Assembly (NCBI GenBank): GCA_001687465.1
Contig: LVLI01000044.1
Span: 1-32,291, forward strand
DNA from: Halocafeteria seosinensis
Lineage: Eukaryota
Reading direction: 5' to 3'
Length of the DNA stretch: 32,291 bases
The notes beneath the pieces are model-generated. The model made no database searches and was not told the DNA's origin. It saw only the letters and a list, made by a program, of their open reading frames with translations. Positions 1-32,291 of this stretch are shown in pieces. Each line of letters begins with the position of its first letter. Within the stretch, counting starts at the first letter, position 1. The position numbers and the translations under genes are program-made.

Positions 1-171
1 CTCCTCCCCCGATGCCTCCTGAGCTTAACCAGTGCTGTGTTCCCCCACGGCGCATGTCAGCAAGGCTGCAGGAACAGCGGGCCCGTCGCTGCTTAACACG
101 GGCGCTTACCGCTCCTCGTTAAGAGGATGTGGTCAACTTCCCGGCCGGCGGGCTATCTGTCACATTTGTGT

Positions 172-13100: not shown

Positions 13101-16100
13101 ACATTCGATTGCTCCTCAAATGATGGAATACTCTCAATGCGCCCAAAGTTATTTCCTTCCAGTTTCACCAGGTATCCTTCGGTAGGTCCAGTTTCTGGGA
13201 GCACTCGGAAAACAGTTGGAGCCGTGTATGACACTTCGAGCGCTTCATCCACAGAGCTGCTTTGTCCCGCGACGTGGACACGTACTTTTCGAAGGCCACC
13301 CTGTCCTTCCGGGGTGACAATCTCTATGACGGAATGATTAAATTGGGTGATCTCGCCCCCATGTACAAACAAGTCGCCTTCGCGGAATGGGTTCGGTAGC
13401 GTGTATCGGACGTCCTTGTCCGGTCGAGTTGGTTCAAGCGTTACCAGTAGATGGGGAGAACGAGCCTTATTCTGAGGTGCGAAATCAACCCCATCGACTC
13501 CCTCGTTCCCAAAATTGGCACCATATATGGAAACAGACTCTCCTCCCGTTGTACTCCAATCCTTCAACGAGATACTGTGGATTTCCGGATGAGAGTAGCT
13601 GTACCGAACATCGCAACTACTTGGATCACAGTTGGCTTGGTCGTCAACCGTCACAATTACGGGATGATTTACTCCTGCATACTCAGGAGCAATGCAGCTT
13701 ATTTCATCATGCTTTTGCTCAATCACCACGTCGCGGCATTGTCGACGTCCGATGCGAACATTGATTCGATCTTGGAATGACCCGAAATTGGATCCTCGGA
13801 TCGTAACGCGATTCCCACCATTGGTCGGACCACGTGGTGGATCGATATGATCTACCACGGGAGGCTCATAATCAATTCCTAGGTAGTGCGTCAACTGTTG
13901 CCCATCTACATCCATTACAAATTGGTGACCTCTCCCTGTATTTCCTGGTAGATTCAGCGTAGAATACGTGTGATCGAAATCTGTTGAGTCGAATACATGT
14001 GCGTCTGTGGGAACGAACTCGCGACGTGTTCCATCAGCCTTCATTTCAAGGAATGCGTGATCTTCTCCAAAAGGAGTTGTTCCAAAGTTATCACCTTCTA
14101 ACATGACTTCGCCACCTGTTGTAGGCACTACTATGCGTTTATCGAATTTTGGACGGGGACTGTGCTGGCGGAAATTATTCCCGCGGCCGAAAAACTCTGC
14201 AGGTGCAGCGAACAATTCGGAAACATTCCTCCAAGTCGCTACTTTGTTTCCTTGAGAGTCGACCTTAGCGAACACATCTCGAACCACAGGTGGAGCGTAG
14301 TTCAGAACACAGCTGTCGCTATCAGTTTCCATACCAAGGCGTTCGATCACAATCTGATTGCCGGTCCCTTCACCTGGGGGAACCTCGCATTCTACCTGAC
14401 ATTGCAAGGTAATATTGTTCTCGCCGACCGGTACACAATTGAAGGCACCAGTGTTGTTCCTGCATTCTTTCTCTCCCACCGTTATGCGCAAATCAGCCCC
14501 TTGAATGTCGCGAGCTTCCAAGGTTAAAATTTCTGGTTCGGCCGCTTCGTAACCAGCAGTTCTAAACAGGCGATGTCGATTCTCCTCACATTGGCCAGTG
14601 CTAAATGATGGAAATTCTGGAAGGTAACGTTTACTTGAGGTCTGCCGTTCTGATACGCTAGCACGCACAAACCCTTGACTAAGTGGGATCTCTGCCACCA
14701 CACCATCATGATTCCATGACTTTATGGCGGGTCTCGTGATCCGAAGCCAAGTAGCATTGGTCTCCCATCCAAAAATACCTAGGTCTTCCATCTCTGCGGC
14801 TGCTAACTCAATATTCCTGGTTGCTATATCCTCAGATTTAAGGTTTAGTTCAAGACATCCACATTCCGGGAATGGACCAACTGTAGAGTAGCCGGACGCT
14901 CCTGGACACGAGTCCACATCCAGTGCCACCGTTGCCGGATGACACAGAGAGCTACCGCGTATACTCAATTCCATCATCCGAAGGCGGCCATCCAGTATTT
15001 TAGTCTCCATTGCTCTAATACCATTAATAACAGGAGGGTCGTAAGACAGTCTCACTGTATCAGAGTAATGATCGCCCGTTTCGGTATGAGTAATGATTTG
15101 CAAAGGAATATCCTGACCGTAACCCGCGGGCACTGTGAATACGAAGACTTCCAGTGACCCTTTGAGTTCTGTGGTACCGTTACGACCAGGGACGATTGCC
15201 CTCGTTTGGCGGTTGGGATCATTAAAAAAAGCCATGTCCACGGGAAAAATCTCTTCTCCAAAGATAACTTCGTGAGACGCATGAGGATCATCTAAACCAA
15301 GGTTCCGACCAACCACGCGAATTTGAGCACCACCCGCTGTACTCGTTCGAGCCGATTTTGGATTGGAGCAGTCAGTGGGGATGTGAGATGGTTGTGTGCC
15401 GTCTGGTAGAGGAGTGGGACGAGGTGTATGTTTCTCCATGCACTCTAGTGTGCCGGCCTGGTATCCCCACGAAGGAGATGCCTCACTCACCTGGCCAGCT
15501 ACACTAAGACGCCAGAACAAAGGATTTCCGCTGCCCGGAGGGACAGTACATTGAATTTGAGAATGATTTAATACGCGACAATCTCTTGCCTCATATTGAG
15601 TTGGTACACCAGCCATATCCGGGCCGAAACGTACCCACTCCAAGTTGGCTATCCCAGTTTCTTGGGGGCCAAAGTTACTGCCAATAATGAGTATCTCTTG
15701 CCCACCATCCGTAAGTGCATCAACAGCCCCTGGACCACCGAAGTTAGTGATCGAAGGACGAGCGTACCGTGTAACTGGAGGAATAGAAGATTGTCCGTCC
15801 ACCGTAATGTTCCAAATCATGTCGGAGCCAGCGCCCGGCGGCAACGCGCATTCAAGTAAAATATGGGGAGTCTTCACCTTACAGTCGGCTTCAAAGATAG
15901 GGGAGATCGTATCCAGAGCTGTATCCTTTACATCGTTATCCGCATTCAAAGCATCCGACCGAACGAAAGTTGCCTGGTCAACATTACCAGGTGGACCGAA
16001 CATCGAACCATGCACCAATACTTCGTCTCCTTCAGTGTCCAAATGATTAGCGCCTGCAGGACCACCTTCCACTGCTTCATAGAATGAAACTATTGGAGGC

Positions 16101-19100
16101 GAATAACTCGTATTGAATACTAGTGGCATGGGATGTCCTACGTGAGGTTGCCCGCCAACCCACACATTCCACTGAAGGTCTTTTCCGGTCCCTTCCACCG
16201 TTTCACAGCGAATAGATTCGTGGGGCACAGACACCTTACACTTCGCCGCCGTATATCGACTGGAGTCATCCAGAGGGCCGTAGGTCACTTTCAATAGCTT
16301 ATCACCATACATATCGGAAATATCGTCAGAGAACATTGCGGATGATGGACCCATATTGATGCCGTTCAGGGTTATTCGTTCTCCTCCACGAGTATCGGCC
16401 TGTAACGTGCCTTCACCCTCAATGTTAGGAACAAGAGGAAACGCGTAATGGGTCGTGATATCCTGTGACACTTTCAGGTCGCTGATTGTATTGCCCGTGT
16501 GCACGCGCCATAGCAAGCGATTGCCCACGCCCTGCCTTGTCACGCATTCGAGAATAGTGTGAACAGCGATAAACGTGCAGTGTTCCGCTTCATACACGTC
16601 ACCTTCGGAAATCATCTGTAACGATGTTGTATTGATGAGGCTTTCGCCATCTATGCGTTCACCAGGACCAGGGACTCCAAAGTCGTTACCGGTGAGACCA
16701 TCCGTTGATATAACGGGACCGTAGTACACCGCGATTTCTGCAATGTTTTCTCCGAAATTGTCTCCCACTATACGAACCGTCTCTCCTCCCTTCGTCGACA
16801 TTATGGTACCATTCAAGTATATCGAAGAATATTCAGGACGACATATTTCATGAGAAGTCGCGGACACAGAATGGACAATAGGCGGGCCATGCGCTGAGTC
16901 TGCTCTTAAAATGTTGCTAGTCCTTCCTTCAGCAATTACAAGTTTCCAAGCAATACGGTTCCCAATGCCGGGAGAGGTGGTACAATGAACCTTAGTATGA
17001 GGAGATTCATTACTCACATCGCATACTGCCGCTTCAAACTGGAAGGAAACCGAGCCATCGTTGCGACGAGGGCCGTACAAAACAGTCACATCGGTACCAG
17101 CCGGGCCAAAATCAGTTCCTATTAATGTGATGTTTGTCCCTCCAGACGTTAACATGGCCGCATCATTCAGAATTTGGACTAACTCGGGTCTTCGGTACGT
17201 ACTGCGAAGGTTACTCAAATGGGTACTCACCCGATTGCCACCGTACTTGGCCCCGTTATCCTTATAGTCAATCCGAGTTTCCCATACAATATCTTCGCCA
17301 ATGCCTTCCACCGAGCTGCACTGGATTTGGATGTTTCCCAAACTCTGGTGGCAGTCATTCAGCCTGTACTCCGTGCGTTGGATCGTTTCCTTAGACGAAA
17401 CCATGCGTTCTTTCCCTGCCGCCCGTGAGCTCTTGGGCACGTCTACGATTGTCCCGCTACCGCTCCCATTTGGCCCGTACCCAAGCACCACTATCTCCTC
17501 AGAGCCATGGAGTGGATGACTGTCGGCATATCCAAGGTCACGGCCATCGAGCAACAGGACGTTTTCGCCTTCCGAGTCCATGTATCCGTCAGATGAATCG
17601 GATATGTTAACACTATAAATCTTCGAATCTGGTTCATTCAGAGCGAAGATCCAGACGTGAACTACATCACTCAGGTTATGATGGTTCAGAAAGTCATGAT
17701 CCGATACTTCGACAGTTAAATTGTAGGAACTTTGCTTCTCGAAGTCGAGCGATTCCGTTATTCGGATATCTCCGGTTGCCTTCTCAATATAAAATGCGTT
17801 ACCATCATTTCCGCCGACGATTGCCCACCGTTTTATACCCCAGCCATACGAATCCGGAGAATCTTCGTCAGATGCAGGCGCGTACCACAAGCTCATTCTT
17901 CCCCTTCGACTCTGAAACTGACACAGCAAAATCCGGATTCGGCTCAGGAGAAAACACAATCGGCGGATCGTTAACGTCATCCAATTGGATTGTAAATACA
18001 CGGCTGTGCGTCAGTACGGTCACATCACCAGTTGTAGGATGAGGAGGAAGGCCATTATCCGAAACTTGGATCTCAACCTCGAACTTTCCGACCGTCTCGA
18101 AGTTAAGGGAGCACGTAGGGTCTTGGAGATCATCTCGAACGAAAACTTCGCCACTAGTGGCGTTGATAGCAAAGGGGAATTCACCATCACAATCAAGTTC
18201 CGACGGTTGAGGTGTGTAGTCGAGAATATGGAATTTGAACTCCTCACCGGCAACTGCCATGTCTGGATCGTCGACGCGAACACTTGTGACGAATGTCCCT
18301 GGAGCAGAGTTTTCGGGAATGTGTTTTGGAGTGTCCGCATTGGTGATCTCGGGAGATTCATTCACATCTTGAACAATGACAGTAGTGGTGTTTATTGTCC
18401 TCAAATTTCCCGGGCCATCATTGCGTACTTCAATTCTCAGTTCGTACCTGTCCTGAGACTCAAAATCCAGTGTTTGGTCTCGTAACCGGAGCGGGGCAAC
18501 ATTGCGCTTCTTGTTTTCTTCTTCCTCATCGCGCCATTGCACTGAAAACATGCGGGTTCCCTCCGAAGGGGTGGAATCACGAATTGCGAAAGACAACGTC
18601 AACTTATCGTCATGAGTCTCTGCACCAATTGAGTCCAGAATCCGACCATTAGGCCTCAAGTCTTCCGGGACCTCTACTGTTTGAGCTAAAAGGGTAGGTG
18701 GGAAGTTGTTCCCAATGATATCAATGTGCAGTATGCCATATTCAGAGGTGAATCCTGAAGGATCAGTTACGTTGACTAGCATTTCACAGTAGTCCGCAAT
18801 ACCGTCAGAAAGGGCAGGAAGTCTAATATCACCTACGCGAATGGTGGCTTTTCCAGCCTCTTCCTCATGAGAAACAATGAAATATTGACAAGAGTTAGTC
18901 GGACGTTCGACAGAAGCAAATGCAAATGTTAGCTTGTCGGCATCCCCCTCATCGACATCGTCCCCTTGAATAAAGTCTACTCGGGTTCCTGGGAACGCTG
19001 ATTCCCCGATGCTGGTTTGATACTCAACCGTATCGTATGCTGGGAATGCGGGATGCTCATTAACGTCGTTCACTTGAACGGAGATATGTCCGACACTTGA

Positions 19101-22100
19101 CAGGCCCCCGGGGTCGGAGACTCGTATGCTTATTCTGTAGGAAGTTCGGCGCTCAAAGTCTAAAGCACTGCCTAGTCCGGTCCTTGGTTCTCCCGTGCTA
19201 ATATTGATTTGAGTTCGAATGTTTCCATTCGGTTCAATAGCAAATACGTCCTTCCCGAGAGAGCCTTCCTCCATCTCGTACAGCAGGCTAGCAGTGTCAC
19301 CAGGATCTTGGTCCCACCCAAGAATGGGACTGTTCTGGAGNAGGTGATTCCCGCCGGTATTTTCATCCACGTGGAAGACTTGACCGGCAATGAGATTCGG
19401 CGCAGTGTTGACGTTTCGAATCAACACAGTAACCACTGCTTCAGACGAACGAGGTGGACTTCCATCGTCGGACACACGAAGAATCAGTCGATATTCTTTG
19501 CGCGCCGTGTGATTAAATTCGGCACGAGAAAGTATTTGACCAGAATCTTTCTCAATGTCAAACAAGTCCGTGGCCTCCGAATCCTCGCCGGGGCTAAAGT
19601 CACTGGCCCACCCAGCAATGTTATATCTAAGAGTCGGGGGAGTAAAAGGCATCTCCTTCCCAGAAACTGCGCCGGGACCAGTGTCAGGATTCGTGGCATT
19701 CAGCTTCGGATGAACTCGGCTTCCGGAAGGTTCCCTCTCTTTTATCCAAACTTCTTGGTCATCCACGATTGGAGGCTCATTAACGTTATCCAGATCCACA
19801 GTTACTTTTGTAACATCCCGCAGAGCTGGCCATTCCTCTGGCCGTGGAGTACCTTCATCAGATACTTCCACATAAAACACATACCGCGCAATATGCTCGT
19901 AGCCCAGACAAGCTGGACCGAACTCGTTCACTACAATTCGAGCCGTCTCTTGATTTGATCCTTCAGGTTCCACCCGGAATGGGAAAGAGCCAGGATCAGA
20001 CACCGTTTCGGAACCATCGCCATATTCGATGGTTGAATCGCGAATAGTCCAAGAGAATATCGTGCCTACATTTTCATCAGTCGCTGAGACCGTTCCTACC
20101 GTCGTATCTTCCTCTGACATCTCCTTTATTCGGAACATCTTCGACCTGGACTCCGTCTCGGGAAACAAATTGGCCTTCAGTATGTCAACAACAAAATCAC
20201 CCGTATCACTCAGCTTGGAGTCAGTTATTTTAATTGTCAGCGAAAGTTGATGGTCCGATATACTCTCATATGCGATACGGGGAGCGTTGGGCGCAACAGA
20301 TATTGCCCCAGAAAACTGATCGATCTGTAGAAATTTATTAGAATCTTGAGATACAATAGAGTACATGACCTTGTCCGGTGAGTTTGACTCCGCTAGAGCA
20401 TCTGGATCAGCTGCTTCTACAAGTGTGTCGTAGCCACTCCCTAAAACTAAGGGAGTTCCAACAGTGGAGTTTTCAAAAATTGCAAACTTATGTTTTGCAG
20501 GCTCCTTCGTGAAATAGGGAGCCTCGTTTACATCGTTCACATGAATTGTAACAGTTCCAGTGACTTGCTTAGCGGGTTCACCTCGGTCATCCGCAAGTAT
20601 CTCAGCTTCATACATGCGAGTGCGGTTTTCGAAATCAAGGAGACCCGCTCCATCCCGGGAGACGCTTAGTTGGCCTGAGCATGAACCAATGCTAAAGAGG
20701 CTCGAATCCTCCGAGACATCAACAGACAAGATAGAGAAGAGAAGTTCCTGGCCAAACGAGCGAGCAAGCTCGTCCTCATCGAATACTACCAACTCATGAA
20801 GGGGGTTTCCAATCAGAGTAGCCCTTTCGGAGTGTTCGTCCACACTAACAATTGTCAGATCTCCGGACGAGAATGAACTCCGCCACACGGGCTTCTCGTT
20901 TATATTAACAATATTCACTTTGATCGTACAGGTAGCAGAAAATCCATCGGCCTTGGCCTTTACCCGCAATGAATACTGCCGGCATGCTTCGTAGTTAGCG
21001 AACGCGTTGTCCCCAAACCTAATATGGAAGTCATCCCCTTTATCCTCGCCAATGAAGAGCTCCTGTGTGTCAGGGACATGAAACGTATACCACTCCGGAA
21101 TCCCTTCAGTATTGATGCAATGTTCAGCGCTGGAAATATCATCGATGCTGTACTCAACAGGTTTCTCCGATTGACGATTCTTTGCACGCACGTGTACGAT
21201 CGACCCTCCACGGTTGTTTTCTTGGGCTTCAGCGAGAGTACCACCGTCGACTGTGCTTCCCGACGTGGCACAGCCACGTTCCCATTGAATCCGTGGATAT
21301 CTGAATCCATCAATACAGACTTCATTGCTACTACAAGCCCGTTGCCCTTCTCTTTGGGTCTCGGGAGCACCCTCGGGAATCGTGTAATGCCCTCCATCTA
21401 CCTGTTTAATTGAGTTGGTTCCCTTTGGGCAGTAGTACGTGGCCGGGTCTTGCGCCCCTGAAGGAGCGCAGCTACTTGATGTGGCCGAGGAAGAGCCTTC
21501 GCCACAGAAGAATCCAGCCCGGCATCGTCCGGAGCAATCAGATGAAGTCAATCCCCGCTGATTCCCGAACCGTCCTGCCGGACATTGATAGCGTTTTCCT
21601 TCTTGACAATAGTACCCTGCTTCGCACTCCAATTCTTTGGTGCGAGTTTTTTCGCTTGAGCCTCCCACGGTGTAGTATCCATTCGAGACGTGCACAGGAC
21701 TGTCGCTACTTTCGGGGCAGTAGTACTTGGCAGATCCGCACTTTTTCTCCGTTGGACTTGTACTAGCCGGGGGACAATAGTATCCTGCAGCGCACTTGCC
21801 TGCACATGTAGACGAGGTAGATCCCTCCGTGCCATAATACCCTGCTTGGCAACTTTGGCTCGAAGATTGGGGCTTGCGGTTGCCTCCACTACAATAATAC
21901 CCGGCATTGCAGAAGCCTGAGCAGGAGCTGTCACCAAGACCTCGTCGAGCCCCGTAAGTCCCAGGTGGGCATTCTTTCTCGTCAACTCTCGTCGACCCAG
22001 GAGGACAATAATGTCCTTCCAGACAGGAGCCGGAGCATTCAGCGGTGAATAGTCCGGGAGCATCGCCGTAACGGCCTGGGGGGCACTTGACACATTCCGC

Positions 22101-23871
22101 ATCATCTCCGGTTCCTGCTTGGTACGTGCCCGGCATGCATATGTCACATTCACCATTCACTTCGGTTGACCCAATAGGGCACGAGTCATAATATGAAAAC
22201 GCATTCGTCATTTCTCTCCATAGTCCACAGTTCGCGAGGTTAGAAACCTCGATTTCGACATTATTGGTCCCAGGGTCAGAGTTCTTGGTCAAAGTGGCCT
22301 TCTCCGGTACGACGCAAATGACATGGCTACTGGTAACATAAATTGCTCTTCGGTTGACCCACTCAGAACCACCTTGGCCTCGTAAACGGAATCTACAGGC
22401 AAGGGCTGCACTCAGCTTAAAGTTGCTGCCAAATACATTCATCGTTGTTTGTGCGTCCTTCTGTCCCTGTTGAGGAGACACACTGTTCACATTGGGCAGT
22501 TCTTCGGAATCTGGTACAAACAGTTCTACAGTTTCCGGGGATGAAGTACCCTCGTTATCTTGAGCAGTTATGCTCATTTGGTGAACACCATCTTGATTGG
22601 CCGTAGACTCCCAGCTAAACTCATACTGAACAGGATTGCTGCCAGAAGATACCTGTGTAAACGTTGAACCACTGGGTCTACCAGCAGTCTGGAGCTTTAC
22701 ACTATGACACGGCTCTTCGTTGTCTTCAGCGGTGACTAAAAAACTCTCCCTCGTCCCGGGAAGAAAACACTGAGGTAAGGTATCATCAATCCATGGGGAC
22801 GGGGATTTAAATGTTGGCGGGTGATTACCCACACAGGAGCAGCCACTGCCACAGTCGTGATCGTTGAAGCATGCTTTGCCACAATCATTGCAGTTACTTC
22901 CTCCACTGCAAATGTCAGCCCGTGGTACTATTCGCAAGATGAAGTCGATACCAACTTTGGAGTAACCATCTGATACAATGACATTTGTATACCACAGTTC
23001 TTGGTCATTCCCTCCAAGAGATGGGGGATTCCAAGTCATTTTCCCGCTTCCTTCGTCAATGGAAATTCCAGGAGGATGGTGCCCGGTGCCGGTTTCTACC
23101 ATTTCGTCGCTCTCAGCAAGTCGAAATGTTAAGGGATCCATATCATCATCGCTAGCATCGACAAAAAAATTATTTTCCTCTCCCTCGGTAACGGCAATGA
23201 TGGGCATCATAGAGGAGGCCGGAGGGCGGTTTACCATATTGATGTCGCTGCGGTGAGAAAGGTCAATATCGGCAATCAGACGCCAAGAGGATGACCCACT
23301 ATTTTGGATAGCCCCGATGCGACAGCACGACTCGAAACGCCATCGATAGGGATCCCCGTTGTTGGTTTTGGCAGGATAGCGGTGCTTTGTCTGAGCTTCC
23401 CCGTCAAACCAGTCTTCATCTTCGTCGATGGAGTTGATGTTCAAGGGCGGCATTCGCTCTCTGTCTCCATCGCCATAGTAGAAGCAGCAGTAGTCTCCAT
23501 CTTTTTCACCTATTTTGGGCCGATGGAAAAACGACCACCGCCTGCATCCACAACACGCAAAGGAAAGCCATTTATAACAAGGTACTCTGATGTGCCAGCA
23601 GCGGGACTCACGAATCAACTTACCAGCCAATGCTAAACGTAAACCGCACGGTATTAGGGTGGTGGTCATTCGGCTGGTATCTCCACGTGACAACCCCATA
23701 GCGATAGTGCGACGCCTTCACTGCGTCCAATAGAAAGCTCAAGCCTACTATCGTAGACGCCATAAATGGCAAAGAACGACTCTTTCTCTTCCTCCTGCCG
23801 TGAGCCCGCTGCCGCTGGGCAATGCCAGCTGTCTCACCATAGAAAGAAGCACCCATTGCTCTGCTTTTCAT
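10163..23871 (-). CDS. Giant cadherin / IPT-TIG / Cys-rich cell-surface protein with nine TM helices (nonagonal-cadherin-like), ~4,500 aa
   Basis: Joined from exon 1 (start ATG at 23871, 23856 or 23763, to 23624; signal-like MASTIVGLSFLLDAVKA-SHYRYG), intron 23623..23542, ORF 17868..23699 and ORF 10163..18001, with a frameshift at ~17880. It has cadherin motifs (LDFE, DxD, DVNExP), CPxGxYC repeats, G.NFG IPT/TIG repeats and nine hydrophobic helices near the C-terminus. The start codon is uncertain and small in-frame introns cannot be excluded. Confidence 0.85.
10715..12005 (-). other. Nine-pass transmembrane region of the giant gene
   Basis: Hydrophobic segments begin AWVFVVLF, ISFVTIGVDYFQ, WFATMLLP, ILIGVFFL, LFPFAILF, WYWILLII, FQLAVALV, VESVLLAS and ALAIAIGI. 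Counted by eye. Confidence 0.7.
17630..21250 (-). repeat. About 10 tandem cadherin repeats within the giant gene
   Basis: Repeat-end linkers NINEKP, DVNEAP, KANLFP, NVNEPP, NVNTAP, DVNEHP, GNNFPP, DVNESP, DVNDPP and ALNEPD, plus LDFE/LNFE and DxD calcium-binding motifs. Coordinates approximate. Confidence 0.85.
21310..22190 (-). repeat. Cys-rich CPxGxYC (ephrin-receptor-like / GCC2_GCC3-type) repeat tract within the giant gene
   Basis: CPIGS, CMPGTY, CPPGRYG, CLEGHYC, CPPGTYG, CNAGYYC, CQAGYYG, CAAGYYC, CEAGYYC, CPAGRFG, CRAGFFC. Coordinates approximate. Confidence 0.8.
23542..23623 (-). other. 82-nt GT-AG intron (phase 2) of the giant cadherin gene
   Basis: The minus strand reads GGCTG|gtaagt ... 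ggatgcag|GCGGTGG. Splicing joins ...FTFSIGW to RWSFFHRP in frame. Confidence 0.85.
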
Positions 23872-25071
23872 TCCATCAAGAAAGAATAGAATATATATCC
23901 TGCACAACCACATAATAAAAGTTTAAACTCATGAACATGGTTGTTGGTTGTTTTTTTTTTTTCTGCCTTCTTTGCCCTCCTCAGCTTGAGCTGAGCTGAA
24001 CCCAGCTGAGGAATTCCAGCCGTAGCCGCACATGCTTACGTGTTGAGCGAGAAAAGAAAAAAAGAAAAGAAAAGAAAATACATACCGGTAATTTAATAAA
24101 AACGCACGTCCGTGACTTTTTCTTCAAGCAGAATAGACAGGGAGAAAGAGCACCTACATGTACGTGTAGGCTGACAAGCCATATTCGAGCGCCCTTTATA
24201 CGACGACGCAAAAAAGGAAAACTGGGGGAAGTGAAAAGGGAGTGGAATCTGGGGAGTCGCAGCCCTGGTCGCACGGAGGGAGGCTTCAATGTGAGTCATC
24301 ACGATCTGACGGTTTGCGGCCACTGGGAATCAGTTGTCAGCGGAAAGGAGAGGAATTGAACTGTCTTTTACCTACGATGACAGCAGGGGCGATGCTGTCT
24401 GGATCACGGAACATACTTCCGAAAAGTGTTGGAGGCTTAGGAATTGTAGGGTGGGAGGAACGACCGCGACTGGCTCGGCTTCAAAACATCCCGTTGCAAC
24501 AATACGACACGGTTTAGAGTACAGAAGGACCCCAATTCTGACATGGACGTTTCTACTTTCGTTGTAATCTGCATTGGTGTTGACTTCCTTGGCAAATCCT
24601 CCGGACACGAAAGAGATCGTCGGCACGAACAGCAACAACTTCATGGCCAGAAGGAAAGATAAGGAACAAGGAAGTGAATGGCATGTTTGAGAAGGAGGCA
24701 CCAACTGAAGGCACTAGAAATTCCAGAGGGACAAGTTGCTCGCTCCCTTGTTGCCTCGAAGGAAAGACGATTAACGCCTCACGAACTTTCTGAATTGACC
24801 AGACATCCAAGCGTTAAAGTCAATAGACACGAGCGACGTCGCGATGCATTCCCAATATCCAGTACATTCTCATCTTTTTGTCCCCCGAACGCCACATTAT
24901 GCAATATCATCGTGTTGTTTTTCAACGGACATACCAAACGAGGTTACACGCAAAGGTTGAAGAAGCGTAGCCACGTCTTCCGGTACATCACCAATACATA
25001 CAAGCAGCCTAACCCGACGCCCTCGGGCCCATGGCACACAATCTGGGTGGGTTGTTGCTTGTTTATCTGAG

Positions 25072-25132
25072 GTAAATCCACTCAGCACAGAACACCATAT
25101 ATGCTGGTATTGTTCAACTGTATGCTGCCTAG
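25072..25132 (+). other. Probable 5'UTR intron of the LRR gene
   Basis: ctgag|gtaaat ... tgcctag|. The donor context tatctgaggtaaaNccactcagca is conserved upstream of the third LRR copy (~31642-31665). In-frame stops precede ATG 25149. Confidence 0.45.
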
Positions 25133-25148
25133 ATGAGGAGAATAAAGA

Positions 25149-28100
25149 ATGGCATCGAACAGCAAGAGGGACGCCAGGACGGAAGAAAGAGTGCAGACGT
25201 GGATTCAACGGATTCGACGAAATGATCCAGGGTATAAGGATACAGGATGGGATCTTTATCGGAAGAACTTGGATGACGAAGATGCAAAAGACATAGCAGA
25301 TGCCTTGCGGGAGGGAAAGAATACGACATTGACGAGGATTACTTTAGCAGGGAATCAAATCAGTGCTAAAGGAGCTAAATATTTGGCACATGCATGGCGC
25401 GTCAATAAGACATTGACTGGGATTGATTTAGGACGGAATCAAGTCGGTGATATAGGAGCTCAACATTTGGCGGATGTCTTGCGGGTCAATACGACATTGA
25501 GTGCGATTTGGCTACATGGGAATCAAATCGGTGATATAGGAGCTCAACATTTGGCGGATGTCTTGCGGGTCAATACGACATTGAGTGCGATTTGGCTACA
25601 TGGGAATCAAATCGGTGATAAAGGAGCTCAGCATTTGGCGGATGCCTTGCGGGTCAATACGACATTGACCAGGATTAATTTAGAGCGGAATCAAATTGGT
25701 GCTATGGGAGCTCAAAGTTTGGCGGATGCCTTGCGGCTCAATACGACATTGACTAAGATTTGGTTAGACAGGAATCAAATCGGTGCTACAGGAGCTCAAC
25801 ATTTGGCGGATGCCTTGCGGGTCAATACGACATTGACCTATACTGGTATAAACAACAACCAAATCAAGGATCAATCTCTTACGGACCGGATCAAGCATTT
25901 AGTATTCCAGAGAAACAATGTAAGACCACAACGACAATGTGTTTTGTGGAAACTAGCTTTTTTTTTAGATGAATGCATGAATGAATGAGGAAGGAAGGTC
26001 ACTTGCGACGACATACAGTGTAAACCCGGTCGCGTTTGTCCTTGTGTGGGTGTGGATAGGCGATTATGAACTAATTGTTTGCGATTTTCGTGCGTTTGGG
26101 TTTTGGTTGGCTTGACGTTTCTAGGGCAGTGATTGTGCATTTCCACTGTTGTTAAGCACTGAGCCAATTATTGTCCCTTTATCTTTTTCCTTGGTTTTGC
26201 GGATTGCAGCACGAACCGGAACGAGCCAAACGAGAAGCTGAAGAGATCAGAAAGGAAAGCGAGGAACGACAGCGACATAGTAATTGGATTGGCCTCCACG
26301 TATCAGTACGCATATCTGTACTTGAAGCCATACTGTTCGTTTACGAGATCAACGTCGATTCGTTGGCTTGTTTCGACATGTGAAAACTGCAGAACAGCGA
26401 CCATCGGAGCAAAAGGGACGCCATGAAGGAAGAAAGGGTGCAAACGAGCACTCAAAGGATTCGGCGAAATGATCCAGAGTACACGAGGACGGGAAGTGAC
26501 CTTTGGGGCACGAACCTGGATGATAAAGATGCAAAAGACATAGCAAATGCGTTGCGTGAGGGAAAGAATACAACATTGACATGTATTGATTTAGGAAAGA
26601 ATCAAATCGGTGATACCGGAGCTCAACATTTGGCGGATGCCTTGCGCCTTAATACGAATTTGACTGAGATTAATTTAGGAGCGAATCAAATCGGTGATAC
26701 CGGAGCTCAACGTTTGGCGGATGCCTTGTGGATCAATGCATCATTAACCACGATTCATTTAGGAGGAAATCGTATCGGTGCTGCAGGTGCCCAACGTTTG
26801 GCGGATGCCTTACGGGTCAATACAATATTGACGAAGATGGTTTTAGCAATCAATCAAATCAGTGCTACAGGAGCTCAACATTTGGCGAATGCCTTGCGGG
26901 TCAATACGACATTAACTGAGATTCGTTTAGAAGCCAATGAAATCGATGCTACAGGAGCTCAACATTTAGCGGATGCCTTGCAGGTCAATACGACGTTGAG
27001 GGAGATTGATTTACCAGGGAATCAAATCGGTGATAACGGAGCTCGACATTTGAGGAATGCCTTGCGGGTCAATACGACATTGACTAAGATTGTGTTAGCA
27101 AACAATCGAATCGGTGCCACAGGAGCTCAACATTTGGCGGATGCCTTGCGGGTCAACACGACGTTGACTGAGATTTATTTAGGATTTAACAAAATCGGTA
27201 ACACAGGAGCTCAACATTTGGCGGATTCCTTGCGTTTCAATACGACATTGACTACGATTTGTTTTGGGGAGAATCAAATCCGTGCTATTGGAACACAGCA
27301 TCTGGCGGATGCCTTGCGGGTCAATACGACATTGACCACGATTTGGCTGAATGGAAATCAAATTGATGATACAGGAGCTCGACATTTGGCGGATGCCTTG
27401 GATGGCAACATGACATTGACTGATATTGATATAGACAACAATCCAATCAAGGATCAGTCTCTTAAGGACAGAATCAAGAATTTAGTATACCAGAGAAACA
27501 AGGTAAGACCACACGACTTTCTCCAGCAAACAACGGTTGCGTCTTGTCCAAGCTCGTTCCAGTGGAATGAGACTAGCTCTTTTTGTTGGAGCACACAGCA
27601 ACAAAGTGAATGCATGAATGAGGAACGGAGAAAAGGGTAGGTCGCTGCAACGAAGTAAAGTGTAAAACCGGTCGCATATTTCATTGTGTGCGTGTGTATG
27701 GATCATTAGTGAACTATGTCCTTCTGATTTGTGTGTGTGTTTGGTTGGACTGATGTCTCTAATGCAATGCTTCAGCATTTCCACTGTTAAATTTTAAGTC
27801 GATTCTTGCCCCTTTGTCCTCATTCTTTGGTTTACTGTTTCCAGGCTGAACCCGAGCGAGCAAAGGGAGAAGCTGAAGAGATCAGAAAGACGGAAAGCAG
27901 GGAGCAACAACGACATAGTAATGGCATTGACACTCATGAATCAGATGCAGTAAGTGCGTCTCAGGCGATTATCTTCATGAAAAAGGTCCACGTTGGCTTC
28001 TGCTGTCAACGTGCGTAACCCACAGAAGAGAACGTATGAACCCTTACGAGTGAAGCGTTTGGAAAAGCTGGCAAGGACGGATGATTATGATGGGATCCGG

Positions 28101-28478
28101 AGACTGCGAGGTTCTTTACGATCGGTAGATCTTGCTGGAAACACTGTCTTGCACAAGCTCCTGAAAAGTGCTGACGAAAACGTTCGGGACAAAGCCAGAT
28201 ATTTATTAGTGGTTGAAAACTTGGATTTTGATGTCAACATTCAAAATGACCGCGGAGAAACAGTTCTCCATTTGGCCGTCGGGAAGTCGAATGCTGACAT
28301 TGCTGAAGCTGTTGCCAACAGAGGAGCTAACCCAAATCTCCTCGATAAAAGTGGCAAGCCAGTGCTGTCTTATATTGAGGAGCGAGGGGACGAAGAATTG
28401 TATCGTCGTATCTTTGTCCAACATCGTGACCAGTTCGACATGACTTTAGACAGCAACCAACACACAGTGGTACGGTAG
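25149..28478 (+). CDS. Spliced LRR(7)-linker-LRR(11)-linker-ankyrin protein, ~844 aa (NLRC3/ribonuclease-inhibitor-class LRRs)
   Basis: Exons 25149-25919, 26210-26305, 26393-27502, 27845-27949 and 28026-28478. Donors are gtaaga, gtacgc, gtaaga and gtaagt; acceptors are tgcag, tgcag, tccag and cacag. All four introns are phase 0 and the joined frame is open. The repeat consensus is GAQHLADALRVNTTLTxIxLxxNQI. The last exon has ankyrin motifs GNTVLH and GETVLHLAV. Confidence 0.75.
25290..25865 (+). repeat. 84-bp tandem array, 7 LRR units (first LRR exon)
   Basis: Period-84 unit ggagctcaacatttggcggatgccttgcgggtcaatacgacattgac...aatcaaatcggtg. 25444-25620 is an exact period-84 duplication. Confidence 0.95.
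26535..27450 (+). repeat. 84-bp tandem array, 11 LRR units (second LRR exon)
   Basis: Same unit as the first array. Beta-strand variants are TCIDLGK, TEINLGA, TTIHLGG, TKMVLAI, TEIRLEA, REIDLPG, TKIVLAN, TEIYLGF, TTICFGE, TTIWLNG and TDIDIDN. Confidence 0.95.
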
Positions 28479-28788: not shown

Positions 28789-30672
28789 ATGGAGGGACTT
28801 GTCGTGAGTGCCCTCGATGGGGTAAGAAAGCTGTATAATGCATTCAAAGACTATAAAGTGGCGGCCTCGGAAGCCGAGGATCTCGCCCACCGCCTCTCCA
28901 TGCTGGATTCCATGCTTCAAAGAGTACCCACAGACGACGACTCGATCCGCACGCCATTGGAGCGGGTCGCTCAGACAGTGGACAACAGCTATAGTGCTAT
29001 CATGGAACGTCTGCAACCGAAAAAGGGGATATGGAGAAAAGTCAAAGAATTGGCGTCCTCGGCCGCGGATCGCCAAGCGTTCAGCAAGATAGCATGGGAG
29101 ATTTTCCACGCCACTTCGGATCTTAATATGGCACTCACTTTGGACAACAGGCATGACCTACGCCGCATTCGTGAAATCTTGGAAAATAAGGAATTGATTA
29201 ACGAGCAAATGGTGAAGCAGTTCCTTGCGCTCGTTGCGGTGAATTACGAGAACGAGCCAATCAATCCGAAGAAAGAAAACGAAAGCGATGATGAAGATAT
29301 GACGTGGGGCATGAGTAGCATTCGGAGGTACTCGTTGGACGACTTAATCTGGGAAGATGGTGAAGGACCAACACGGGATAGTCCTGAGAGGTGTCTCATT
29401 CGGAAGGGTGGCTTCGGATCTGTCTATCGAGCCAAGCTACGCGGTGTTGGCGATGTTGCCGTTAAAAATCTGAACATTGATCCGAATGAATTGAAAGGGA
29501 AACGGTACAAAGAGTTTAAACGGGAATGCGTCCTACTTCATCGGGCTTCGACGAATCCCAACGTTGTGTCGTTCTTCGGAATCGTGAAGACGAAAGACTC
29601 GATCGGCCTAGTGACGGATTTAGCCAAAGGAGGATCCCTATTTGCTGCCATGAATGAAGAAGATCATGAATACTGGTCAGATCTACCCACCGCGCTGAAA
29701 TTGAAAGCGTTGCTTGACCTACTCGTCGCAGTAAATTGGATGCACTCGTTGGGACTGGTCCATGCCGACTTGAAGCCGCAAAACATTCTTCTTGCAGAGG
29801 ACATGAAAGATGCTTCATTCCCACCTAGTCTGTGGGTGAGTGATTTTGGATTGGCCCACACTACACGCACAATTAAGACATCACGAGGCTCAGCCCTTTG
29901 TCCCAAAGGAGAAGGGCCAACAGGTGGCACTTTGGGATTCATGGCTCCCGAAACGCTCTCGAGGTCGGAAACCACTAAGGAATCGGATATATTCTCGCTT
30001 TCGGTTACGCTTTGGTCCGCACTGAGTGGTGAAGAACCCTTTAAAGGCGTTGTGGATGCTCAGCAATATCTACTCCAATTGAAGAATGAAGGACTTCGTC
30101 CGAATTTAGACCAGCTTTCAAGGGACGTTCCTACAAACATAGTTAAAATCCTGCAACAAGGTTGGTCATTCGATGCGGATCAGCGTCCGACTATTGAAAC
30201 TATGCTAAACGAATGGAGTGGTGAAGCCACACAGGCGATCTATGCAACCCTCGGAGCAGTTTACCAGGTAGAAGAAGCTGCGAAAACCCAAGACTTTGCT
30301 CGCGTCCATGATCTCAAGTCGTCTGTCAATGACAGAGACGCTACAGGGAACACAGCGTTGCATCGCCTGATCCAAGCTGGAAATGAAAGCGTGTTCGATG
30401 CTGTGGAGTGGTTACTTATTGACGAAGACTTACCATTTGACGTTGACATTCAGAACGAGGAAGGTAAAACTATTCTCCACTTGGCCGTCGAGGGTGCCCA
30501 CGTCGACCTGGCAGATACTATCTGCGCTAGATCCCCCGACCCTACTCTCAAAGATGGGGCTGGTCGATCTGTATCCTCTTTTCTGCAAACCTGTGGAGAA
30601 ACTACGGAACTGTATCAACGGATATACATGGAATATCGGCGAGGAATCTTTGGCCACGAAACGGAGCCATGA
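28789..30672 (+). CDS. Protein kinase (TKL-like, non-RD) with N-terminal MLKL-like helical bundle and C-terminal ankyrin repeats
   Basis: 627-aa ORF. Kinase motifs are RKGGFGSVY, VAVK, FKREC, HADLKPQN, DFG, GTLGFMAPE and SDIFSL. The C-terminus has GNTALH and GKTILHLAV ankyrin motifs. The N-terminal ~125 aa of amphipathic helices end in KGIWRKVKELASSAADRQAFSKIAWEIFHATSDLNMAL, which resembles the MLKL N-terminal domain pattern. That domain call is less certain than the kinase call. Confidence 0.9.
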   Translation: MEGLVVSALDGVRKLYNAFKDYKVAASEAEDLAHRLSMLDSMLQRVPTDDDSIRTPLERVAQTVDNSYSAIMERLQPKKGIWRKVKELASSAADRQAFSKIAWEIFHATSDLNMALTLDNRHDLRRIREILENKELINEQMVKQFLALVAVNYENEPINPKKENESDDEDMTWGMSSIRRYSLDDLIWEDGEGPTRDSPERCLIRKGGFGSVYRAKLRGVGDVAVKNLNIDPNELKGKRYKEFKRECVLLHRASTNPNVVSFFGIVKTKDSIGLVTDLAKGGSLFAAMNEEDHEYWSDLPTALKLKALLDLLVAVNWMHSLGLVHADLKPQNILLAEDMKDASFPPSLWVSDFGLAHTTRTIKTSRGSALCPKGEGPTGGTLGFMAPETLSRSETTKESDIFSLSVTLWSALSGEEPFKGVVDAQQYLLQLKNEGLRPNLDQLSRDVPTNIVKILQQGWSFDADQRPTIETMLNEWSGEATQAIYATLGAVYQVEEAAKTQDFARVHDLKSSVNDRDATGNTALHRLIQAGNESVFDAVEWLLIDEDLPFDVDIQNEEGKTILHLAVEGAHVDLADTICARSPDPTLKDGAGRSVSSFLQTCGETTELYQRIYMEYRRGIFGHETEP

Positions 30673-31639: not shown

Positions 31640-31985
31640 TCTATCTGAGGTAAAGCCACTCAGCATACATACTGTGCATCCATCCATACACTACTACCGG
31701 TACACGGAGATGCTATAGTATACAACAAAGTATACGGTAATAGTGTACTGTACAGTCTACTGTACCTATCTAAAGAAGAAGAAGAAGAGGAAGAATGGCA
31801 TCCAACAGCAGCAAGCCGAGCAGGAAGAAAGAGTGCAGACCAGTATTCAACGGATTCGACGAAATGATCCAGAGTATACGGATACAAGAGGGGATCTTTG
31901 GCACAAGAACTTGGATGACCAAGATGCAAAAGACATAGCAGATGCCTTGCGGGTCAATACGACATGGACTACGATTTATTTAGCA
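31640..31985 (+). pseudogene. Third, truncated copy of the LRR gene 5' end
   Basis: It shares the upstream donor motif, the aagaatggcatc start context and EERVQTSIQRIRRNDPEYTDTRGDLWHKNLDDQDAKDIADALRVNTTWTTIYLA. The ATG (MASNS) is out of frame with EERVQ, and homology stops abruptly at ~31985. Confidence 0.85.
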
Positions 31986-32291
31986 TCAGTTCCCAGGTTG
32001 GTTCTTTGGTCAAATCCGAGCCATATTTCAGGGTGTATTCCTGGTAATTTTCAATTGCTATGCTTTCCCCCTCGGGAACAGCAGCACGTCTAACCAGGAC
32101 TTCTACACGACCTTCAAATACACAGTACACCACTGCGTAACAGACTTTGTTCGTCGCCCCAGCAAAGGCCTCCGTCACTTCGCCCTCGTCATTTTGCACT
32201 AGCTTTGTTGCTTGCAACCAAGCCGCGTATAGTGCGGCTTCAGCCCTGTTAGAGTCAATGGAGTCTGTAACTCGCTTCAATTCAATCGCAG
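31969..32291 (-). CDS. Possible 3' end of an unrelated gene entering from beyond the window
   Basis: A 103-aa protein-like ORF reaching close to the window edge and converging on the LRR truncation point. No motif recognised. Confidence 0.3.
   Translation of the reverse strand, partial: AIELKRVTDSIDSNRAEAALYAAWLQATKLVQNDEGEVTEAFAGATNKVCYAVVYCVFEGRVEVLVRRAAVPEGESIAIENYQEYTLKYGSDLTKEPTWELMLNKS

What the first reader, a model, noticed from the sequence alone, without database searches (positions are those of the whole stretch)
25290..27450. LRR variation concentrated in four exposed codons per 84-bp unit
The 18 units have near-identical scaffold DNA but differ mainly at ttgacN-NNN-att-NNN-tta-NNN-NNN-aat, the concave beta-strand face. 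Variation falls mostly on codon positions 1-2 with position 3 retained. Site 1 has agg, ggg, gcg, aag, gag, acg; site 2 has act, gat, aat, cat, gtt, cgt, tat, tgt. This gives 17 distinct strand sequences among 18 units. Such a pattern is expected from strong diversifying selection on a ligand-binding surface over a homogenised scaffold, analogous to plant NLR LRRs, lamprey VLR modules and brown-algal LRR-ROCO repeats.
Basis: partly seen in the sequence, partly recalled or inferred. Interest (0 to 1): 0.75.

Follow-up and report, generated by a model that had tools for sequence, protein, structure and literature searches.

The report
Fast-changing binding face in LRR genes
Two neighbouring genes of a eukaryote encode leucine-rich-repeat proteins whose 28-residue units share one scaffold but differ at four codons per unit that change amino acid faster than silent sites change, a known hallmark of recognition proteins that are likely selected to bind varied targets.

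Summary
The repeats are real, but they are not one 18-unit array. They are two tandem paralogous genes on the + strand. Gene A (25149-25919) has 7 units. Gene B (26423-28478, three exons, 545 aa) has 11 units plus an ankyrin tail. Both are RI/NLR-type 28-residue LRRs (Pfam LRR_6; AF2 pLDDT 94.7; best fold match ribonuclease inhibitor).

Variation among the 16 regular units concentrates in codons 6, 8, 10 and 11, with codon 17 a weak fifth. Codons 6 and 8 flank the buried Ile of the beta-strand. Codons 10 and 11 open the loop after it.

In my codon-model fits these four codons have omega 2.7-6.7. This is significantly above 1 on three trees, holds with a local rate multiplier, and is reached by 0 of 400 neutral simulations. 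Scaffold silent divergence (dS about 0.3) matches intron divergence between the two genes (0.37).

Contigs of public runs indicate an apparently large, expressed family with the same variable positions.

However, the test compares repeats, not alleles, and no ligand or function is shown. The pattern is well known from plant NLRs, fungal NLR repeats and brown-algal ROCO genes. This is a new member of a known kind.

The parts
25149..25919 (+). Gene A, exon 1: N-terminal cap (25149-25319) plus 7 LRR units of 84 bp (25320-25907), ending at a GTAAGA donor
   Evidence: ORF 25149-25988. Pfam LRR_6 E 3.5e-22. Units listed. 64% identical to gene B over 228 aa. The donor is inferred from homology with the gene B donor, which is confirmed by spliced contigs.
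25920..26305 (+). Gene A: predicted intron (25920-26209) and short charged exon 2 (26210-26305). No ankyrin exon follows.
   Evidence: The intron aligns with gene B intron 1 (200 matches, 82 mismatches, JC 0.37). Exon 2 aligns with gene B exon 2. No spliced contig of gene A was seen, so this part is inferred.
26423..27502 (+). Gene B, exon 1: N-terminal cap (26423-26566) plus 11 LRR units (26567-27490) and the start of the C-cap. In every unit starting at s, the variable codons are s+15..17 (site 1), s+21..23 (site 2) and s+27..32 (sites 3 and 4); the weak fifth is s+48..50.
   Evidence: Pfam LRR_6 E 4.4e-41. AF2 pLDDT 94.7 with 11 strand-helix units. Foldseek top hit is ribonuclease inhibitor 1a4y, E 1.5e-21. 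Codon statistics.
27503..28025 (+). Gene B: intron 1 (27503-27844), exon 2 (27845-27949, charged linker), intron 2 (27950-28025)
   Evidence: GT..AG joints 27502>27845 are seen in contigs of X2 and X3. Joints 27949>28026 are seen in X2, X3 and X4. The frame was checked.
28026..28478 (+). Gene B, exon 3: ankyrin-repeat tail and stop codon
   Evidence: Pfam Ank_5/Ank_2/Ank_4. 39% identical (E 3e-32) to the ankyrin tail of the next gene.
28789..30672 (+). Context: neighbouring gene with a helical N-terminal region, a protein kinase and an ankyrin tail homologous to that of gene B
   Evidence: Pfam Pkinase E 2.8e-38 plus Ank. 99% identical to a public transcript-derived protein, P0121. Motifs VAVK, HADLKPQN, DFG and APE are present.
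31795..32005 (+). Copy C: a third, truncated family member (start region, N-cap and first strand only)
   Evidence: tblastn gives 72% identity over 54 aa. 91% DNA identity to the gene A cap over 131 nt. Homology is lost after the first strand, and the ATG appears out of frame.

Best explanation
The 18 units belong to two tandem paralogous genes (7 and 11 units) that encode RI-type leucine-rich-repeat proteins, and their four variable codons per unit have changed amino acid about three to seven times faster than silent sites, which likely reflects positive selection for new residues on the predicted binding face.

Shown:
- The gene structures, the LRR class and fold, and the positions of the variable codons.
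- The rate excess at those codons.
- Spliced contigs of gene B.
- Many further contigs in the same runs that carry the same scaffold with other strand variants.

Inferred:
- The units descend from one master unit that was amplified, or kept alike by exchange between units and genes, at about the time the two genes split. Afterwards each unit acquired its own residues at strand positions 6 and 8 and loop positions 10 and 11.
- This gives each protein a different concave or ascending surface.
- The proteins are cytosolic recognition modules. The ankyrin tail (in other family members a U-box or another domain) would pass the signal on.
- The ligand and the biological role are unknown.
For: Architecture:
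- TRF arrays and ORFs. LRR_6 at E 4e-41 and 3.5e-22.
- AF2 pLDDT 94.7 and pTM 0.91, with strands at unit positions 6-8 and helices from position 16.
- Foldseek matches RI, NOD2 and NLRP chains at E 1e-21 to 1e-18.
- Gene B splices are seen in contigs of 3 of 4 runs.

Rate excess:
- NG86 over 120 unit pairs: variable codons pN 0.636 and dN 1.41. Scaffold pS is 0.27 and dS 0.33.
LRT P ranges from 3e-5 to 7e-17 on three trees.
- With a separate rate for strand codons 4-12, omega is 2.7-5.6 and P is 0.0024 to 1.6e-7.
- Per codon, sites 6, 8, 10 and 11 are the four highest, with omega 2.4-11.
- 0 of 400 all-neutral simulations reach the observed top-four signal on either tree.

Silent sites look neutral:
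- Intron 1 of A against B has JC 0.37. Cap dS is 0.43-0.60. Scaffold dS is 0.19-0.44.
- Third positions of codons 6 and 8 are kept while positions 1-2 are near saturation.

Family:
- 161 contigs of run X1 lie on one 144-nt unit. Summed depth reaches about 43,000, against about 95 in unique flanks.
- The best-supported differences fall at codon 5 position 3, codon 6 positions 1-2, codon 8 and codons 10-11. None is listed at codon 6 position 3 or in codon 7.
- Paralogues in the same public transcriptome carry the same caps with other C-terminal domains: P0074 and P0059 (U-box).
Against: - The test compares repeats within and between two paralogues. A single tree without recombination is assumed, and gene conversion among repeats can inflate such tests. 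I used my own GY-type implementation, not codeml or HyPhy.
- pN at the variable codons (0.64) is near saturation, so the corrected dN is imprecise.
- Silent variation is also raised inside the strand segment. Conserved strand codons have dS 0.60, and codon 5 position 3 differs in 6 of 13 units against 0-3 at other four-fold sites. This hints at a local mutational or exchange effect.
- The youngest duplicate pair (A3/A4) differs at 3 scaffold bases and 0 variable-codon bases.
- Contigs of X1 are identical to the window over 26699-27086 (units B2-B7, 0 differences). Non-coding flanks show about 2% differences, for example 13 in 634 nt. So no allelic hypervariability is visible. These are contigs of one study, and X1 may be the window's own source.
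- No binding partner, localisation or phenotype is known.
- Depth from contigs is not a copy number.
Confidence: 0.6

Rival explanations
1. Concerted evolution with purifying selection. Exchange among the many units keeps the scaffold alike. The four codons hold old, unit-specific residues that are kept because each protein binds one fixed partner. There is no selection for novelty, and the high ratio arises from an artificially young scaffold.
For: - The scaffold tree is star-like, with A6 and B7 close to the consensus.
- Variable-codon distance is unrelated to scaffold distance (Spearman -0.06).
- Variable codons of units B2-B7 are identical between the window and X1 contigs, while non-coding flanks differ.
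Against: - Exchange tracts cannot skip single codons, yet ATT and TTA between the variable codons are uniform.
- Third positions of codons 6 and 8 are as conserved as scaffold silent sites. The variable codons are therefore not older than the scaffold.
- A and B share no conserved set of variable residues at matching units.
- Mean scaffold dS between genes (0.30) is not clearly below intron divergence (0.37).
Confidence: 0.2
2. No selection for change. The four codons are simply unconstrained surface positions, perhaps in a local mutation or micro-exchange hot spot. The excess over silent sites comes from rate heterogeneity or multi-nucleotide mutations.
For: - Silent variation is higher in the strand segment (dS 0.60 against 0.26 elsewhere).
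- Codon 5 position 3 is an outlier among four-fold sites.
- Many variable codons differ at two adjacent bases.
Against: - Omega stays at 2.7-5.6 (P 0.0024 or lower) when the strand segment gets its own fitted rate of 1.25-1.5.
- 0 of 400 fully neutral simulations reach the observed signal.
- Codon 7 and the third positions of codons 6 and 8, inside the same segment, hardly vary.
Confidence: 0.1
3. Programmed diversification. The variants are made somatically or by a dedicated mechanism, such as VLR-like cassette assembly or retroelement-type adenine mutagenesis.
For: - Position 3 is kept at two sites, which superficially recalls AAY-type targeted codons.
- There are many strand variants in the genome.
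Against: - Differences from the consensus are not adenine-specific. Per consensus base they are A 2.4, C 2.3, G 2.8 and T 1.6.
- No reverse-transcriptase family appeared in the Pfam scans of the eight long window ORFs.
- Both genes are complete and in frame in the germline.
- Contigs of the DNA-like and the transcript-like runs are collinear with the window and show 0 differences over units B2-B7 and B8-B11.
Confidence: 0.03

Closest known systems
Plant NLR / R-protein LRR domains (hypervariable xxLxLxx positions under diversifying selection)
   Same: The variable positions are four of the five x positions of xxLxLxx. The non-synonymous rate exceeds the synonymous rate there. The genes form a tandem cluster with different repeat numbers (7 and 11).
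   Different: No NB-ARC or NACHT domain is present. The repeat is the 28-residue RI class, not the 24-residue plant-specific class. The test here is between repeats, not between alleles or paralogues at matching repeats.
Fungal NLR repeats with high internal conservation (HET-E, HET-D and NWD WD40 repeats, and ANK and TPR repeats; Dyrka et al. 2014, PMC4986451, passages read)
   Same: The repeat units are kept alike at the DNA level. A few codons per unit are hypervariable, positively selected and map to the binding face. Repeat number varies. Exchange within and between family members has been proposed.
   Different: Those repeats are WD, ANK or TPR; the paper states that no LRR was found in fungal NLRs. 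The paper's criterion of more than 85% identity over at least 100 aa is not met here (mean unit identity 65%). There is no NOD domain here.
Ectocarpus LRR-ROCO genes (Zambounis et al. 2012, PMC3341825, abstract and passages read)
   Same: This is an LRR family outside animals and plants. The positively selected sites lie on the concave face. The genes are clustered and repeat number is variable.
   Different: In Ectocarpus each LRR is one exon and exon shuffling drives the variation. Here all units of a gene lie in one exon. There are no ROC/COR GTPase domains. The LRR class also differs.
RI/NLRC3-type LRR_6 proteins of bdelloid rotifers and Capsaspora (closest sequences, P0001, P0014, P0016)
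   Same: They share the same 28-residue consensus scaffold (N-x-T-L-T-x-L-x-L-x-x-N-Q-I-G-D-x-G-A-Q-x-L-A-x-A-L). They are 45-53% identical over most of the LRR domain. They are fused to varied effector domains (ADP-ribosyltransferase, kinase, F-box, B-box).
   Different: No close orthologue exists; the best hit is 53% identical. The ankyrin tail was not seen among the listed hits.
Lamprey variable lymphocyte receptors
   Same: An LRR scaffold with diversity concentrated on the concave face.
   Different: VLR diversity is assembled somatically from cassettes into an incomplete germline gene. Here the germline genes are complete and contigs match them. The LRR class also differs.

Membership tests
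RI-type (Pfam LRR_6, PF13516) leucine-rich repeat | Significant match to the family profile in tandem copies | tested here: met
   Gene B scores 136.1 bits (cut-off 23.4), E 4.4e-41. Gene A scores 77.1 bits, E 3.5e-22.
RI-type (Pfam LRR_6, PF13516) leucine-rich repeat | 28-29-residue period with LxxLxLxxN, one strand and one helix per unit, horseshoe fold | tested here: met
   Period is 84 bp. AF2 shows 11 strand-helix units at pLDDT 94.7. Foldseek top matches are ribonuclease inhibitor (4peq TMq 0.84), NOD2 and NLRP3.
NOD-like receptor (NLR) | Central NACHT or NB-ARC NTPase domain next to the repeats | tested here: not met
   Pfam finds only LRR and Ank families in both genes. The gene B model of 545 aa leaves no room for such a domain.
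Fungal-type high-internal-conservation repeats | More than 85% identity between repeats over at least 100 aa (criterion in PMC4986451) | tested here: not met
   Mean amino-acid identity between the 16 regular units is 0.65 (range 0.50-0.93). Nucleotide identity is 0.77.
Fungal-type high-internal-conservation repeats | A few positively selected codons per unit that map to the binding face | tested here: met
   Codons 6, 8, 10 and 11 have omega 2.4-11. They lie in the strand and the following loop.
Fungal-type high-internal-conservation repeats | Repeat-number polymorphism between alleles | not testable with these tools
   Only paralogues (7 and 11 units) could be compared. No long reads or second haplotype spanning an array were available.
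Ectocarpus-type LRR-ROCO | One exon per LRR, and ROC/COR GTPase domains | tested here: not met
   The arrays are uninterrupted ORFs. Splices lie only downstream of the array. No ROC/COR match was found.
VLR-like somatic assembly | Incomplete germline gene completed from flanking cassettes; reads that differ from the germline | tested here: not met
   The ORFs are complete. Contigs are collinear, with 0 differences over 26699-27086 and 27128-27500. Contigs drop rare variants, so rare somatic forms are not excluded.
Diversity-generating retroelement | Adenine-specific substitutions relative to a template, with a reverse transcriptase nearby | tested here: not met
   Differences from the consensus fall on A, C, G and T alike. 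No RT family appears in the Pfam scans of the window's long ORFs.
MLKL-like protein (neighbouring gene only) | N-terminal four-helix-bundle executioner domain followed by a kinase or pseudokinase domain | tested here: inconclusive
   The kinase domain is clear. The N-terminal model is helical but has low confidence (pLDDT 54.8). Foldseek gives nothing at E 0.001 or better. VIA-align gives MLKL Z 10.1, NRG1 CC-R 10.1 and Rx CC 10.3, but designed helical bundles score as high.

The most novel reading that the evidence does not exclude
The locus is a sensor-executioner unit of an innate immune or cell-death system that works without a NOD domain. Hypervariable RI-type LRR-ankyrin proteins detect foreign or altered molecules. 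Through their shared ankyrin tail they engage the adjacent kinase, whose helical N-terminal bundle acts like the membrane-attacking domain of MLKL or plant CC/RPW8 domains. The large LRR family would then be the receptor repertoire of this eukaryote.
Probability: 0.12. Interest if true: 0.8.

Novelty: new member of a known kind. Interest (0 to 1): 0.45.

Why it matters
Repeat proteins with a uniform scaffold and a few fast-changing surface codons mark the recognition repertoires of plants, fungi, brown algae and jawless fish. This locus adds an RI-type LRR family that has no nucleotide-binding domain. It comes from a eukaryote whose proteins have no close relatives in the large protein collection searched (best 53% identity). 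That suggests the same evolutionary solution arises wherever many ligands must be told apart.

It also gives concrete candidates for study: two genes, four positions per unit, an ankyrin tail, and a neighbouring kinase with a possibly MLKL-like head. These could be used to ask how such organisms recognise partners, prey or parasites.

The principle itself is not new, and notes of this scan describe similar families in at least five other genomes.

Tried and rejected
- **Own genome.** None is held, so the family could not be collected at the DNA level.
- **Metagenome scan** with gene B exon 1: 4 loci, all only 26% identical and useless for rate tests.
- **Search with the N-cap alone** (residues 1-62): 5 candidates, none at E 0.01 or better. 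This used the last of the three large protein searches.
- **Sequencing runs.** There are 4 holders, all of one study. No RNA holder is listed on record. I treat X2-X4 as transcript-like only because their contigs carry the GT..AG joints.
- **TRF's 252-bp (three-unit) period.** Unit pairs three apart in gene B differ at 8-21 of 72 scaffold bases, no less than other pairs. B4/B7 (2 of 12 variable bases) is the one exception. I rejected it as a super-repeat.
- **Adenine-specific (retroelement-like) mutagenesis:** rejected.
- **Rfam gathering scan** of the whole window: 0 matches.
- **Minus-strand ORFs** over the region (25871-26167, 27482-27784): no support.
- **Kinase N-terminus.** Pfam gives nothing significant; the best hits are Sfi1 at E 0.0046 and PUB10_N at E 0.13. 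Foldseek gives nothing at E 0.001 or better.
- **Complex prediction** for the two ankyrin tails: the queue was full at every try and nothing was folded.
- **Earlier notes of this scan.** Look-ups by place and by sequence found nothing.
- **Organism name.** I did not try to name the organism from the transcript accession, so the lineage stays open.
Full report
**What is there**

Tandem Repeats Finder reports two 84-bp arrays, not one. They are 25320-25837 (6.2 copies, 84% matches) and 26567-27434 (10.3 copies, 75% matches). Each lies in its own + strand ORF: 25149-25988 and 26423-27640. Read in register, the first has 7 units and the second 11.

Both ORFs match Pfam LRR_6, the 28-residue ribonuclease-inhibitor/NLR class, at E 3.5e-22 and 4.4e-41. 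The 659 bp between the arrays (25908-26566) are not repeats. They hold a GTAAGA donor, an intron, a short charged exon, intergenic DNA and the second gene's start.

**Gene models**

Four public runs of one study hold the region. Contigs of X2 and X3 join 27502 to 27845. Contigs of X2, X3 and X4 join 27949 to 28026. Both joints have GT..AG ends. X1 has contigs that run through the introns at a depth of about 95.

Gene B therefore has three exons (26423-27502, 27845-27949, 28026-28478). It encodes 545 aa: N-cap, 11 LRR units, C-cap, charged linker and an ankyrin tail.

Gene A has the same cap and linker exon by homology. Its intron 1 aligns with that of B at JC distance 0.37. No ankyrin exon follows it. 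Whether it is a short paralogue or is read through into gene B is open; an in-frame GT..AG path exists but was not seen in any contig.

The next gene (28789-30672) is a protein kinase whose ankyrin tail is 39% identical (E 3e-32) to that of gene B. A third, truncated copy of the cap and first strand lies at about 31795-32005. The organism is a eukaryote. The kinase is 99% identical to a protein from a public transcript assembly, and I did not pursue its name.

**The observation**

Over the 16 regular units the consensus is N-T-T-L-T-x-I-x-L-x-x-N-Q-I-G-D/A-x-G-A-Q-H-L-A-D-A-L-R-V. The two terminal units are divergent caps.

- Codons 6, 8, 10 and 11 have 7, 9, 7 and 8 different residues. Codon 17 has 6. 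N1, L4, N12, G18 and L22 never change.
- The 12 variable bases are 42% identical on average. The other 72 are 83% identical, range 69-97%.
- 17 of the 18 strands are distinct.
- Third positions are kept at codons 6 (G in 15 of 16) and 8 (T, or G in TGG and GTG). They are not kept at codons 10 and 11.

It is wrong on the single array, and overstated on 'near-identical' scaffold DNA and on position 3.

**Is it more than chance, and is dN/dS above 1?**

- Of the 7 unit pairs with 5 or fewer scaffold differences, 6 have 5-8 of the 12 variable bases different. Examples are A6/B7 (2 of 72 against 6 of 12, P 2e-4) and A2/A3 (4 against 8, P 5e-5). The seventh pair, A3/A4, has 3 and 0.
- Nei-Gojobori counts pooled over 120 pairs give pN 0.636 (dN 1.41) at the four codons. 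Scaffold pS is 0.27 (dS 0.33) and scaffold dN is 0.15.
- I wrote a GY-type codon likelihood with shared branch lengths and separate omega for the two partitions. Omega at the four codons is 6.7, 3.5 and 6.7 on the scaffold tree, the whole-unit tree and a star tree. LRT against omega = 1 gives P 5e-14, 7e-7 and 7e-17.
- For the structure-defined set 5, 6, 8, 10, 11, which owes nothing to inspection of the data, omega is 2.7-5.0 with P 3e-5 or lower.
- Giving strand codons 4-12 their own rate (fitted at 1.25-1.5) leaves omega at 2.7-5.6, with P 0.0024 to 1.6e-7.
- Codon by codon, sites 11, 6, 8 and 10 are the four strongest on both trees (omega 2.4-11, each P<0.05). Codon 17 is borderline (omega about 2, P 0.04 and 0.13). 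The core residues have omega near 0.
- To guard against picking the most variable codons and then testing them, I simulated all 28 codons as neutral on the fitted trees. 0 of 400 replicates reached the observed top-four score on either tree.

Silent sites do not look constrained. Scaffold dS is 0.19 within A, 0.44 within B and 0.30 between the genes. That is the same order as the intron divergence of the two genes (0.37) and the dS of their caps (0.43-0.60).

**Where the sites lie**

AlphaFold2 on exon 1 of gene B, with 38 aligned homologues, gives pLDDT 94.7 and pTM 0.91. There are 11 strand-helix units. Every strand covers unit positions 6-8 and every helix starts at position 15-16. Foldseek places the model with ribonuclease inhibitor, NOD2 and NLRP chains.

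In LRR nomenclature the strand is xLx of LxxLxLxxN, and the loop after it is the ascending loop (PMC4598782, passages read).

- Positions 6 and 8 flank the buried Ile on the concave sheet.
- Positions 10 and 11 open the ascending loop.
- Position 17 sits at the helix N-terminus on the same flank.
- These are four of the five x positions of xxLxLxx; the fifth (T5) is conserved here.

I had no coordinates, so contiguity of the patch is inferred from geometry, not measured.

**Family context**

When a single unit with 30-nt flanks was laid at 80% likeness, 161 contigs of X1 mapped to it. Summed depth rose to about 43,000 in the scaffold core, against about 95 in unique DNA. The tool warns that this is not a copy number, so I read it only as 'many, probably hundreds of units'.

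Of the 40 best-supported difference rows (78 in all; 38 not shown), 29 fall between codon 5 position 2 and codon 11. They are strongest at codon 5 position 3, codon 6 positions 1-2, codon 8 and codons 10-11. None is listed at codon 6 position 3 or in codon 7. The remaining rows are one at codon 2 and ten in codons 13-26. Most of those are minor, apart from the A/D dimorphism of codon 16.

The transcript-like runs show many of the variants too. Two proteins of the same public transcriptome carry related caps and linker with other C-terminal domains: P0059 with a U-box and P0074 with an unassigned domain.

The closest proteins elsewhere are 45-53% identical LRR_6 proteins of bdelloid rotifers and Capsaspora. 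They share the scaffold consensus and are fused to diverse effector domains.

**Explanation and rivals**

The best reading (0.6) is positive selection for new residues on the binding face of units that share a recent or homogenised scaffold. The setting is an apparently large family of cytosolic recognition modules.

- **Main rival (0.2).** Exchange keeps the scaffold young while old, unit-specific residues are preserved for a fixed partner. The kept third positions of codons 6 and 8, and the uniform codons 7 and 9 between the variable ones, argue against this. The identity of variable codons between the window and run contigs over units B2-B7, next to about 2% differences in non-coding flanks, speaks for it, or at least against visible allelic hypervariability.
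- **Neutral or hot-spot reading (0.1).** This is weakened. It is kept alive by the raised silent variation in the strand segment (dS 0.60) and by codon 5 position 3, where 6 of 13 units differ. I cannot explain that last point.
- **Programmed diversification (0.03).** There is no adenine bias, the germline genes are complete, and contigs are collinear.

**Comparison with known systems**

The pattern is that of plant R-gene LRRs, Ectocarpus LRR-ROCO genes (PMC3341825, passages read) and, most closely in its genetics, the highly internally conserved WD, ANK and TPR repeats of fungal NLRs (PMC4986451, passages read).

It is not a member of any of these:

- There is no NOD domain.
- The units are not single exons.
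- Unit identity (65% amino acid) is below the fungal 85% criterion.
- Fungal NLRs lack LRRs, according to that paper.

Notes of this scan list similar LRR families in five other genomes. These are unchecked leads, and they lower the surprise. My two literature searches for the combination of terms turned up no description of such an RI-type LRR-ankyrin family. That is weak evidence of absence.

**Verdict**

The mechanism is a known one in a new family: a new member of a known kind, interest 0.45.

The more novel possibility is that these LRR-ankyrin genes pair with the adjacent kinase, whose N-terminal helical bundle weakly resembles MLKL and plant CC domains (inconclusive). This rests on neighbourhood and a shared tail only. 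The complex prediction that might have tested it was not available.

Noticed in passing
window 28789-30672 (+): The neighbouring gene encodes a 200-aa all-helical N-terminal region, an apparently active non-RD kinase (VAVK, HADLKPQN, DFG and APE present) and an ankyrin tail 39% identical to that of gene B. The low-confidence N-terminal model (pLDDT 54.8) aligns with MLKL (Z 10.1), NRG1 CC-R (10.1), Rx CC (10.3) and AtMLKL3 (8.4). Designed helical bundles score as high, so an MLKL-like architecture is only a hint. The non-RD label and its link to immune kinases are recalled, not tested.
   Followed up: partly
window 31795-32005 (+): This is a third, truncated family member with only the start region, N-cap and first strand. 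It is 91% identical in DNA to the gene A cap. Against A it has dS 0.065 and dN 0.118 over 40 codons. Its ATG appears out of frame with the LRR frame, so it is probably a relic.
   Followed up: partly
window 26393-26422 and 26405: Homology to the gene A N-terminus continues 30 nt upstream of the gene B ATG, in frame and behind a possible CAG acceptor. An A-B read-through product is therefore conceivable. Separately, contigs of X2, X3 and X4 match gene B from 26405 onward with 1-2 differences, but carry unrelated sequence upstream, and no AG precedes that point. The cause could be a near-identical paralogue, another haplotype or a leader, and it is unresolved.
   Followed up: no
window, codon 5 position 3 of each unit (for example 25754): The four-fold silent site just before the first variable codon is far more variable than other four-fold sites. 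It differs in 6 of 13 units, against 0-3 elsewhere, and all three alternative bases are seen in family contigs. The silent third position of the variable codon next to it is almost fixed. I have no explanation.
   Followed up: partly
window 10163-23699 (-): Two very long ORFs (2612 and 1943 aa, overlapping at 17868-18001) carry cadherin, IPT/TIG and SIBA-type integrin-beta-like domains. They are probably one giant adhesion protein gene. A single N lies at 19341.
   Followed up: no
window 3295-5883 (-): An 862-aa ORF has no Pfam match at E 0.001 or better.
   Followed up: no
window 24900-25210, 25801-26434 and 27371-27723, against run X1: Contigs of X1 differ from the window by about 2% in non-coding DNA (6 in 311 nt and 13 in 634 nt, plus a 23-nt deletion at 27576). 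They show 0 differences over 388 nt of the gene B array. X1 therefore holds another haplotype or strain, with less difference in the coding repeats than around them.
   Followed up: partly
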